From the IMG/VR virus record IMGVR_UViG_3300018478_000044: a stretch of 5,076 nt of DNA. One strand, given 5' to 3'. Source of the DNA: a virus (Duplodnaviria > Heunggongvirae > Uroviricota > Caudoviricetes). This document shows positions 4,279 through 4,358 of this stretch, piece by piece; position 1 is the first letter of the stretch, and each line of letters starts with the position of its first letter. Below the pieces are notes generated by a model. That model saw only the letters and a program-made list of their open reading frames with translations. It was not told the DNA's origin and searched no databases. The translations under genes and the position numbers were made by a program.

Positions 4279-4358
4279 CTGTGCGCACAGATTAAAATTA
4301 TGTGTGCGCACATGTCAATACTTAACTTCTCACTTTTTTTGCTGTATTGTGTGCGCCC
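4279..4358. promoter_or_regulatory. Operator-like palindromes in the divergent control region
   Basis: Perfect 12-bp palindrome CTGTGCGCACAG at 4279-4290. Second copy of the core TGTGCGCACA at 4303-4312. Degenerate copy TGTGCGCCCA at 4349-4358 near the plus-strand gene start. Centre-to-centre spacings are 23 and 46 bp, about two and four helical turns. Confidence 0.55.
4291..4318 (-). promoter_or_regulatory. Candidate sigma70 promoter for the leftward small-ORF and replication operon
   Basis: On the minus strand: TTGACA (4318..4313), 16-nt spacer, TTTAAT (4296..4291). The spacer contains the palindrome TGTGCGCACA (4303-4312) and the predicted transcription start falls on the second palindrome (4280-4289). 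Confidence 0.45.

What the first reader, a model, noticed from the sequence alone, without database searches (positions are those of the whole stretch)
4279..4358. Helically phased palindromic operators overlapping a divergent promoter pair
TGTGCGCACA occurs twice perfectly (4280-4289 and 4303-4312, 23 bp apart) and once degenerately (4349-4358, 46 bp further). For the leftward operon, one site lies in the spacer of a TTGACA-16-TTTAAT promoter and one at its predicted start point. The degenerate site overlaps the likely -10/start region of the rightward gene. This is the classic geometry of a repressor controlling both its own gene and an early operon, here the element's immunity or derepression switch.
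Basis: partly seen in the sequence, partly recalled or inferred. Interest (0 to 1): 0.5.

Follow-up and report, generated by a model that had tools for sequence, protein, structure and literature searches.

The report
Repressor operators in a phage satellite
Three copies of a 10-bp palindrome sit on two back-to-back promoters of a phage-satellite island and are very probably the binding sites of the small DNA-binding protein encoded next to them, which matters because islands of this class, including the laboratory model EcCICFT073, were thought to have no repressor.

Summary
TGTGCGCACA is exact at 4280-4289 and 4303-4312. The degenerate copy TGTGCGCCCA is at 4350-4359, not 4349-4358, so the spacings are 23 and 47 bp and the sites are not helically in phase.

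The window is part of a Gram-negative phage-inducible chromosomal island (PICI). Its leftward operon runs from an Icd-like gene to a primase-helicase and an iteron origin.

At this same position related islands carry at least 12 alternative cassettes. Each has its own small rightward gene (DUF3950/YlcI-YnfO, or Arc/CopG-like) and its own repeated palindrome. One site always abuts the -35 of the leftward promoter. Others lie at its start point and, in most cassette types, at the -10/start of the rightward promoter.

The motif tracks only this protein, not AlpA, primase or Icd alleles. In six other genera relatives of the protein have the motif at conserved 23-24 and 47-bp spacing (exact in five, one core base different in Pasteurella), while the DNA between sites has diverged. 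The predicted fold is ribbon-helix-helix.

This is best read as a repressor/operator cassette with swappable specificity. The prototype EcCICFT073 also has one, although such islands were described as unidirectional and without a known repressor. Binding and repression are inferred, not shown.

Unexpectedly, the Icd reading frame stays free of stop codons, antisense, through the whole cassette.

The parts
4280..4289 (.). Operator O1, TGTGCGCACA (12-bp perfect palindrome CTGTGCGCACAG at 4279-4290). It covers the predicted start point of the leftward promoter.
   Evidence: Invariant in 33 type-A loci. Conserved in Serratia, Limnobaculum, Klebsiella-like, Salmonella and Dickeya relatives.
4303..4312 (.). 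Operator O2, TGTGCGCACA. It lies in the spacer of the leftward promoter and directly abuts its -35 hexamer.
   Evidence: In every cassette type examined where sites could be placed, a type-specific site abuts the leftward -35 (sequences).
4350..4359 (.). Operator O3, TGTGCGCCCA (1 mismatch). It overlaps the last base of the rightward -10 and the predicted rightward start point.
   Evidence: The same imperfect sequence occurs in all 33 type-A loci. It is a perfect copy in Serratia, Limnobaculum and Klebsiella-like loci at the same 47-bp distance.
4289..4318 (-). Leftward promoter P_left: -35 TTGACA (reverse complement of 4313-4318); -10 TTTAAT (reverse complement of 4291-4296, 16-bp spacer) or TAATCT (reverse complement of 4289-4294, 18-bp spacer). 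It drives the Icd-like to primase operon.
   Evidence: Read directly. The -35 is conserved as TTGACA, TTGACG, TTGAAG or TTGACC in all types. The promoter is predicted, not mapped.
4322..4350 (+). Rightward promoter P_right: TTAACT (4322-4327), 17 bp, TATTGT (4345-4350). It is back-to-back with P_left, with 3 bp between the two -35 hexamers.
   Evidence: Aligned equivalents are TTACAT or TTAACA, 17 bp, then TATTGT, TATTTT or TACTCT in other genera, and TATACT or CATACT in other cassette types. Predicted only.
4387..4584 (+). Gene for the 65-aa DUF3950 / YlcI-YnfO protein, the proposed RHH repressor (Shine-Dalgarno GAGGTG at 4376-4381).
4252..4555 (.). Exchangeable specificity cassette: operators, both promoters and about the first 55 codons of the RHH gene. 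It is flanked by sequence shared between cassette types (leader hairpin on the left; the ...RRKAKEQE codons on the right).
   Evidence: Comparison of the window with L001. 9 types behind one conserved anchor, with further types.
4642..4839 (+). Optional second small gene (65 aa, PHROG 21027, no known function), co-transcribed with the RHH gene.
   Evidence: Present in some loci and absent in others of the same cassette type.
4930..4958 (+). Terminator-like hairpin plus T-run that ends the rightward two-gene unit.
   Evidence: All five terminator-like sites in 3900-5076 are on the + strand and none is on the - strand.
4218..4251 (-). Conserved stem-loop in the 5' leader of the leftward transcript, upstream of the Icd-like ribosome-binding site.
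   Evidence: I4; conserved over 9 diverged sequences, with compensatory changes at 3 pairs of this stem; leader MFE -33.5 kcal/mol, z -2.39. No Rfam family matched.
3978..4181 (-). Icd-like gene (67 aa), the first gene of the leftward operon (Shine-Dalgarno GAGGT, reverse complement of 4186-4190).
   Evidence: NCBIfam NF033153 71.6 bits. Annotated as such in E. coli relatives.
3978..5076 (-). Long stop-free frame in phase with the Icd-like gene. It runs antisense through the operators, the RHH gene and the second gene. The likely start is ATG 5015 (GGAGG 9 nt upstream), which overlaps the stop of the upstream BRO-N/Ant-like gene.
   Evidence: Function unexplained.

Best explanation
The three TGTGCGCACA-type palindromes are the operators of the 65-aa DUF3950 (YlcI/YnfO) protein encoded at 4387-4584. 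That protein is probably a ribbon-helix-helix (RHH) DNA-binding protein that reads DNA through its N-terminal arm and beta-strand. O2 abuts the -35 of the leftward promoter and O1 covers its start point. Occupancy of these two sites should therefore exclude RNA polymerase and keep the Icd-like to primase-helicase (replication) operon of this satellite island silent. O3 is a conserved weaker copy on the -10/start of the protein's own promoter and should give negative autoregulation at higher protein levels. The operators, both promoters and the DNA-reading part of the protein form one exchangeable cassette. Related islands carry many alternative specificities, as lambdoid phages do with their immunity regions. 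This suggests that the cassette sets which islands repress one another as well as keeping the resident island quiescent.

Shown here: the sites, their conservation, their co-variation with the protein, and their placement relative to promoter-like hexamers. Inferred: the fold, DNA binding, repression, autoregulation, the immunity role, and how repression is lifted.
For: (1) Motif statistics: 3 hits at up to 1 mismatch against 0.21 expected, with 0 of 200 shuffles reaching 3.

(2) Within type A (33 loci, 10 distinct intergenic variants), 0 of 30 operator columns vary against 19 of 108 other columns (one-sided Fisher p = 0.0065). The motif occurs nowhere else in 256 kb of these loci.

(3) Behind one conserved leader there are 9 cassette types, each with its own protein and its own repeated palindrome. 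Each motif hits 1-4 times in its own region (type E only once) and essentially never in the others. Further types occur in Klebsiella, Yersinia and Salmonella, Pasteurella and EcCICFT073.

(4) In Serratia, Limnobaculum, a Klebsiella-like contig, Salmonella and Dickeya, homologues that keep the ...KK[N/H/G]IRFPHE... arm keep TGTGCGCACA at 23 bp. The first four also keep a third copy at 47 bp; in Dickeya no third copy could be placed. The inter-site DNA has diverged throughout.

(5) The Klebsiella protein is 69% identical to the window protein. In the regions compared it differs mainly in the N-terminal arm and strand, yet it has different operators (GTGTACCCCCAC). This places specificity where RHH proteins read DNA.

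(6) Cassette type reassorts freely with AlpA and primase alleles, and the Icd-like protein is nearly identical across types. Only the adjacent small protein tracks the motif.

(8) Architecture: in every type where sites could be placed, one site abuts the leftward -35. Others lie at the start point and, in most types (not type B), at or after the rightward -10.
Confidence: 0.75

Rival explanations
1. The palindromes are bound by the RHH protein, but its main job is not to repress P_left as a master switch. It could act as a roadblock or timer for AlpA-driven read-through transcription arriving from the right. It could be one arm of a convergent-transcription switch, in which leftward read-through silences the RHH gene. 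Or it could be a purely autoregulated accessory regulator.
For: The cassette lies antisense inside a long stop-free frame that begins at the end of the upstream Bro/Ant or AlpA gene. No minus-strand terminator lies between that gene and P_left. In EcCICFT073 AlpA activates a reporter fused to 'ORF3' downstream of alpA, and AlpA over-expression alone triggers replication (PMC6092414).
Against: Two perfect sites sit exactly on the -35/spacer and start point of a promoter whose -35 is near-consensus and conserved in all types. This is the textbook position for promoter occlusion. The two roles are not mutually exclusive.
Confidence: 0.15
2. The palindromes are sites for some other protein: a host factor (TGTG...CACA recalls CRP half-sites), AlpA, the Icd-like protein (labelled 'transcriptional repressor' in PHROGs), or the second small protein (4642-4839).
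For: TGTG/CACA ends resemble CRP half-sites (own knowledge). PHROG 6196 and 1743 label the Icd-like family as repressor. The second gene is co-transcribed with the RHH gene.
Against: A host factor cannot explain a different palindrome in each cassette. The CRP consensus has a 6-bp spacer, whereas here it is 2 bp. Icd-like proteins are near-identical across types, and AlpA alleles reassort with cassette type. The second gene is missing from many loci that keep intact operators. The PHROG label is not supported by any test found here.
Confidence: 0.06
3. The rightward pair (4387-4584 plus 4642-4839) is a type II toxin-antitoxin module with an RHH antitoxin, and the palindromes are only its autoregulatory operator.
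Against: The second gene has no toxin-family match. It is absent from 3 of 33 type-A loci, 10 of 22 type-H loci and nearly all C, D, E and J loci. The two best sites lie on the leftward promoter, not the rightward one.
Confidence: 0.03
4. The repeats are a chance or structural by-product (for example slipped-strand duplication of a 23-bp unit) with no binding function.
For: The unit does change copy number: L013 has lost one 23-bp unit and L058 has gained one. A single repeated 10-mer occurs in 4.7% of shuffles of the region.
Against: Invariance within the type, conservation of motif and spacing in five other genera, and a parallel arrangement with different motifs in at least 12 cassettes.
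Confidence: 0.01

Closest known systems
Phage P22 immI region: Arc and Mnt ribbon-helix-helix repressors on the divergent, overlapping Pant and Pmnt promoters (own knowledge)
   Same: Small (53-82 aa) RHH repressors. Short palindromic operators overlap back-to-back promoters. One protein controls both its own gene and the opposite operon. The local motif NIRFPHELIDGI aligns with Arc FNLRWPREVLDLV.
   Different: No significant sequence relationship (hhalign probability 5%). There are three separated 10-bp sites instead of one 21-bp operator per protein. The target operon is a satellite replication module, not an antirepressor gene. The specificity cassettes are exchangeable.
Lambdoid immunity regions (OR1-OR3 between PR and PRM; imm434, imm21 and immLambda modules) (own knowledge)
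   Same: Three operators, one of them weaker, span divergent promoters. The repressor gene plus its operators form a module that recombines between otherwise similar genomes, giving many immunity types.
   Different: The repressor is RHH-like and 65 aa, not a two-domain HTH CI. There is no RecA-cleavable domain and no Cro partner. The sites are 23 and 47 bp apart and not adjacent.
SaPI / Gram-positive PICI master repressor Stl (Rpr) and the stl-str divergent region (PMC6092414)
   Same: A divergently transcribed repressor gene sits between the integrase side and the replication (pri-rep-ori) operon of a phage satellite. The proposed role is to keep the island quiescent.
   Different: Not homologous: the small protein has no HTH-family hit in Pfam, only DUF3950. 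It is much smaller. It is embedded antisense in an otherwise co-directional gene array. No helper-encoded anti-repressor is known. The Gram-negative islands also use AlpA.
Gram-negative PICIs such as EcCICFT073 (PMC6092414; PMC10111431)
   Same: Same element class and same gene order: int, alpA, Bro zone, Icd-like, DUF4222, primase, iteron origin, PerC/ProQ, late genes. EcCICFT073 itself carries a homologous cassette.
   Different: [quoted passage not shown] The antisense RHH gene and its operators were not discussed in the papers found.
P4 / P1 immunity by processed RNA (P4 CI RNA; P1 c4-icd-ant; Rfam C4 and IsrK)
   Same: An Icd-like gene heads the early/replication operon and is preceded by a conserved structured leader. 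PMC10111431 reports C4/IsrK hits in some Gram-negative PICIs.
   Different: No C4 or IsrK match in this window even at E up to 1. Control here appears to be protein/operator based.

Membership tests
DUF3950 / YlcI-YnfO family (Pfam PF13132; NCBIfam NF041551) | Sequence match above the curated threshold | tested here: met
   PF13132: 28.3 bits against cutoff 25. NF041551: 59 bits against cutoff 30. PHROG 949: E 9e-28.
Ribbon-helix-helix (Arc/MetJ/CopG) DNA-binding proteins | Beta-strand, helix, helix fold | tested here: inconclusive
Ribbon-helix-helix (Arc/MetJ/CopG) DNA-binding proteins | Detectable sequence or profile relationship to a curated RHH family | tested here: inconclusive
   hhalign against Arc: E 0.008, probability 5%, 19 columns. 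No PDB sequence hit. Proteins of other cassette types give sub-threshold Arc, RHH_1, HicB and PSK_trans_fac hits.
Ribbon-helix-helix (Arc/MetJ/CopG) DNA-binding proteins | Dimer or tetramer that inserts a two-stranded sheet into the major groove of repeated short operator subsites | not testable with these tools
   No multimer or DNA-complex modelling is available. Indirect evidence only: specificity changes map to the N-terminal arm and strand.
Repressor/operator pair (generic) | Sites overlap core promoter elements of the regulated genes | tested here: met
   O2 abuts the -35, O1 covers the predicted start of P_left, and O3 covers the -10/start of P_right. The same layout occurs in other types and genera. 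The promoters are predicted only.
Repressor/operator pair (generic) | Operator sequence co-varies with the DNA-binding protein | tested here: met
Repressor/operator pair (generic) | Demonstrated binding and repression | not testable with these tools
   Needs EMSA or footprinting and reporter assays.
Gram-negative PICI (EcCICFT073 type) | int + alpA + primase, with an iteron origin downstream of the primase; 10-17 kb island at a dedicated att site | tested here: met
   The window holds a primase-helicase (D5_N, DUF5906, Pox_D5) and iterons at 518-862. int and the AlpA-type HTH gene lie outside the window but are present in near-identical islands. The same order occurs in EcCICFT073.
Gram-negative PICI (EcCICFT073 type) | Induction and packaging by a helper phage | not testable with these tools
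   Experimental property; shown for EcCICFT073 in PMC6092414.
P4-type RNA immunity (C4 / IsrK / CI RNA) | Match to Rfam C4 or IsrK upstream of the icd-like gene | tested here: not met
   No such hit at E up to 1.
Type II toxin-antitoxin with RHH antitoxin | Obligate adjacent toxin gene | tested here: not met
   The second gene is frequently absent and matches no toxin family.
SaPI Stl / Rpr master repressor | Homology to Stl-type HTH repressors; de-repression by a helper protein | tested here: not met
   The small protein gives no HTH-family hit in Pfam, only DUF3950. De-repression is not testable here.

The most novel reading that the evidence does not exclude
The DUF3950/RHH cassette is the 'missing' master repressor and immunity determinant of Gram-negative PICIs. 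It is hidden because it lies antisense inside a long, translated, stop-free 'bridge' frame that links the AlpA/Bro zone to the Icd-like gene. On induction, AlpA-driven transcription, kept free of Rho termination by translation of the bridge frame, would run head-on through the repressor gene and over its operators. That would silence the repressor and open the replication operon: a convergent-transcription switch with many interchangeable immunity specificities.
Probability: 0.25. Interest if true: 0.8.

Novelty: new variant of a known kind. Interest (0 to 1): 0.6.

Why it matters
Gram-negative PICIs are abundant satellites that move virulence and anti-phage genes. Their published model has an activator (AlpA), unidirectional transcription and no known repressor, and the difference from Gram-positive islands is called 'a mystery' (PMC6092414).

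If this cassette is a repressor/operator module, three things follow. It gives DUF3950/YlcI-YnfO proteins, which are also present in lambda and in K-12 cryptic prophages, a first function. It shows that these islands, including the laboratory model EcCICFT073, do have a divergently transcribed regulator with immunity-like allelic diversity. And it makes the open question of how quiescence and induction are wired directly testable with existing strains and reporters.

The stop-free antisense frame, if functional, would be an unusual case of selection for translation through a regulatory cassette.

Tried and rejected
- Rfam scan for a P4/P1-type immunity RNA (C4, IsrK): nothing. The only hits were spurious matches caused by the origin's inverted iterons.
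- Consensus promoter scan: no call in 3900-5076, so promoters had to be read by eye and by comparison.
- The search for related loci with the Icd-like protein in genome contigs gave only 2 loci. Anchoring on the conserved leader DNA worked far better.
- Helical phasing: rejected from the measured spacings.
- CRP-like host site: rejected, because of the wrong spacer and because the motif changes with the cassette.
- TA module: rejected, because the second gene is optional.
- Icd-like as the binder (PHROG label 'transcriptional repressor'): rejected, because Icd-like is the same across cassette types.
- Protein-level conservation of the long antisense frame: a small test gave no third-position bias and indels that are not multiples of 3, so the product itself is probably not conserved. 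The data were too few to settle this.
- Literature searches found no study of this module.
- P. aeruginosa AlpA is an antiterminator (PMC7969949), but its homology to PICI AlpA was not checked, so it is only a lead.

Full report
**Observation**

The window contains TGTGCGCACA at 4280-4289 and 4303-4312, and TGTGCGCCCA at 4350-4359.

With up to 1 mismatch there are 3 hits against 0.21 expected, and none of 200 shuffles reaches 3. A single palindrome or a single repeated 10-mer in 205 bp would not be remarkable. The case therefore rests on the triple occurrence and on comparison with related sequences.

The leftward promoter is as described: TTGACA (reverse complement of 4313-4318), 16 bp, TTTAAT (reverse complement of 4291-4296). 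TAATCT at 18 bp (reverse complement of 4289-4294) is the -10 that is conserved in other genera. A rightward promoter, TTAACT (4322-4327)-17-TATTGT (4345-4350), stands back-to-back with it.

O2 abuts the leftward -35. O1 covers the leftward start point. O3 overlaps the last base of the rightward -10 and covers the rightward start point. The consensus scanner calls neither promoter, so both remain predictions. The sites are not helically phased: 23 bp is 2.2 turns and 47 bp is 4.5 turns.

**Context**

The leftward operon runs as follows:
- an Icd-like gene (4181 to 3978; NF033153);
- five small ORFs;
- a DUF4222 protein;
- a D5_N/DUF5906/Pox_D5 primase-helicase (2692 to 887);
- an iteron origin (518-862);
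- a ProQ/FinO gene that runs off the left end of the window.

To the right lie a 65-aa DUF3950/YlcI-YnfO gene (4387-4584), a 65-aa ORF of unknown function and a terminator-like site.

Near-identical islands in E. coli carry int, an AlpA-type HTH gene and Bro/Ant genes further to the right, all on the minus strand. This is the organisation of Gram-negative phage-inducible chromosomal islands (PICIs) (PMC6092414, PMC10111431, PMC13612085). The prototype EcCICFT073 has the same order, including a YlcI/YnfO gene on the opposite strand.

**Key result: exchangeable cassettes**

In E. coli N921 the DNA is 96% identical to the window, except that roughly 4252-4555 is replaced. The replacement has a different small protein and three copies of a different palindrome, GTGTTnAACAC. 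These are placed around the two promoters in a similar way: one site abuts the leftward -35, one lies at its start point, and the third overlaps the rightward -35 rather than its -10.

Anchoring on the conserved leader retrieved 90 places in viral and metagenome contigs. They fall into 9 cassette types, each with its own protein and its own repeated motif. Each motif hits 1-4 times in its own region (type E only once) and essentially never in the others. That table is partly circular, because the motifs were read from the regions themselves.

Further specificities are:
- GTGTACCCCCAC in Klebsiella and vB_KppS-Ant;
- TGTGTAGACA in Yersinia;
- TGTGGCCACA in Salmonella;
- GTGTGCGTaCAC in Pasteurella Pmp7;
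- GGTGTGGCCCAC in EcCICFT073.

Some cassettes encode Arc/CopG-like rather than DUF3950 proteins, though the family hits are below threshold. In every type where sites could be placed, one site abuts the -35 of the leftward promoter.

**Conservation**

Within type A there are 33 loci and 10 distinct intergenic variants. None of the 30 operator columns varies, against 19 of 108 other columns (p = 0.0065). The motif is found nowhere else in 256 kb of these elements.

Homologues in Serratia, Limnobaculum, a Klebsiella-like contig, Salmonella and Dickeya keep the KK[N/H/G]IRFPHE arm. They also keep TGTGCGCACA at 23 bp, although the DNA between the sites has diverged. The first four also keep a third copy 47 bp further on; in Dickeya no third copy could be placed.

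Across 105 loci the exact motif occurs only in such elements and only at this position. Cassette type reassorts freely with AlpA and primase alleles, and the Icd-like protein is shared between types. The small protein is therefore the only candidate that tracks the motif.

**The protein**

115 homologues were found, all annotated DUF3950 or YlcI/YnfO. R16, F17, P18, F41, S42 and W44 are invariant, while positions 11-14 vary.

The Klebsiella protein is 69% identical to the window protein. In the regions compared it differs mainly in the N-terminal arm and strand, yet it has different operators. That is what an RHH reader would predict. The RHH assignment is probable but not proven.

**Mechanism proposed**

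The protein binds O1 and O2 and occludes P_left, which silences the replication operon. The conserved imperfect O3 gives autoregulation of P_right. The diversity of cassettes suggests immunity-group behaviour between islands. Binding, repression and the inducing signal are all inferred.

The second small gene is optional, so a toxin-antitoxin reading is rejected. There is no C4/IsrK RNA, so P4-type RNA immunity is not evident.

**Unexpected finding: a stop-free antisense frame**

On the minus strand the Icd reading frame has no stop codon for 118-397 codons upstream of the Icd ATG, in every one of the eight cassette types where the Icd start could be located. In 600 nt most loci have 0 stops in this frame (a few have 1, 7 or 9), against 2-21 in the other two frames.

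Using only the DNA between the two genes, 13 of 17 independent systems have 0 stops in that frame. The totals are 19 stops against 89 and 76 in the other frames.

The frame has good start signals right at the end of the upstream gene. In the window an ATG at 5015 overlaps that gene's stop codon (ATGtgTAA), with GGAGG 9 nt upstream. Elsewhere the signals are AGGGGAGcatATG or GGGGGGAGttATG. In EcCICFT073 the frame starts 53 nt after alpA and begins with what looks by eye like a BRO-N remnant.

Annotators of Pmp7 and vB_KppS-Ant called only this long ORF and missed the DUF3950 gene inside it. The amino-acid sequence does not look conserved (few data). No minus-strand terminator-like site lies between the upstream gene and P_left.

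My hypothesis is that this is a translated bridge. It would let AlpA-driven transcripts cross the antisense cassette into the replication operon while interfering with the repressor gene. This is unproven.

**Literature and novelty**

[quoted passage not shown] Searches found no study of DUF3950 proteins or of this module.

An RHH repressor on divergent promoters is a known kind of system; P22 Arc/Mnt is an example. Three things are new here: the assignment to DUF3950, the presence of the module in Gram-negative PICIs including the model island, the immunity-like cassette diversity, and the antisense embedding.

**Verdict**

Interest is moderate to high, because it makes an open question in satellite biology directly testable.

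Noticed in passing
window 3978-5076, minus strand (also L001, L096, L106, L107, L109 and most loci L004-L095): The Icd-like reading frame stays free of stop codons far upstream of its ATG, antisense through the operators, the RHH gene and the second gene. In 600 nt most loci have 0 stops (a few have 1, 7 or 9), against 2-21 in the other two frames. Plausible start sites sit at the end of the upstream Bro/Ant or AlpA gene. The product looks like junk, so selection may be for translation itself.
   Followed up: partly
window 4218-4251 (minus-strand RNA), within the leader 4182-4285: A conserved GC-rich stem-loop lies in the 5' leader of the leftward transcript. It is kept with compensatory changes from E. 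coli to Serratia, Yersinia, Dickeya, Klebsiella and Pasteurella. No Rfam family matches. A second small hairpin lies next to the Icd ribosome-binding site.
   Followed up: partly
L013 (about 11158-11204) and L058 (7334-7389): Copy-number variants of the 23-bp operator unit. L013 has lost one unit, leaving one perfect site plus the degenerate one; this also breaks the long antisense frame. L058 has gained one, giving three perfect sites.
   Followed up: partly
window 518-862: Replication-origin-like region directly after the primase gene. About a dozen copies of the iteron (A)ACTGTCTACC, in both orientations, flank AT-rich DNA. This caused the spurious Rfam microRNA and plastid hits.
   Followed up: partly
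window 4570-4595 and 4825-4848: Both small rightward genes end with ...AAAGAGCAGGA(G/A)TA(A/G)CC..CACCAGC (both proteins end in KEQE). This direct repeat brackets the optional second gene and may be the joint by which it is gained or lost.
   Followed up: no
window 5067-5076: The last bases, AGATCGGAAG, are the start of the Illumina adapter. The contig end is therefore an assembly artefact, and it truncates the upstream BRO-N/Ant-like gene (C-terminus ...ALWRKYQPDFLEGESNV).
   Followed up: no
window 3-503, minus strand: A ProQ/FinO-domain protein gene (PF04352, E 4e-23) lies downstream of the origin. An element-encoded RNA chaperone could act on the structured leader, but this was not examined.
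   Followed up: no
phage lambda and relatives (for example NC_049951 41609-41770): DUF3950 homologues (43% identity) sit near the right end of lambda-like genomes, often unannotated. Their function is equally unknown.
   Followed up: no
window 3978-4181; L106 4435-5109: PHROG families 6196 and 1743 label the Icd-like family 'transcriptional repressor', and that label was copied onto the long ORF of Pasteurella phage Pmp7. No evidence for the label was found here, and it may mislead annotation.
   Followed up: partly
window 4367-4376: A further perfect 10-bp palindrome, CATTTAAATG, lies between O3 and the ribosome-binding site. It is CATTTAAGTG in most type-A loci, so it is probably not a site.
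   Followed up: yes
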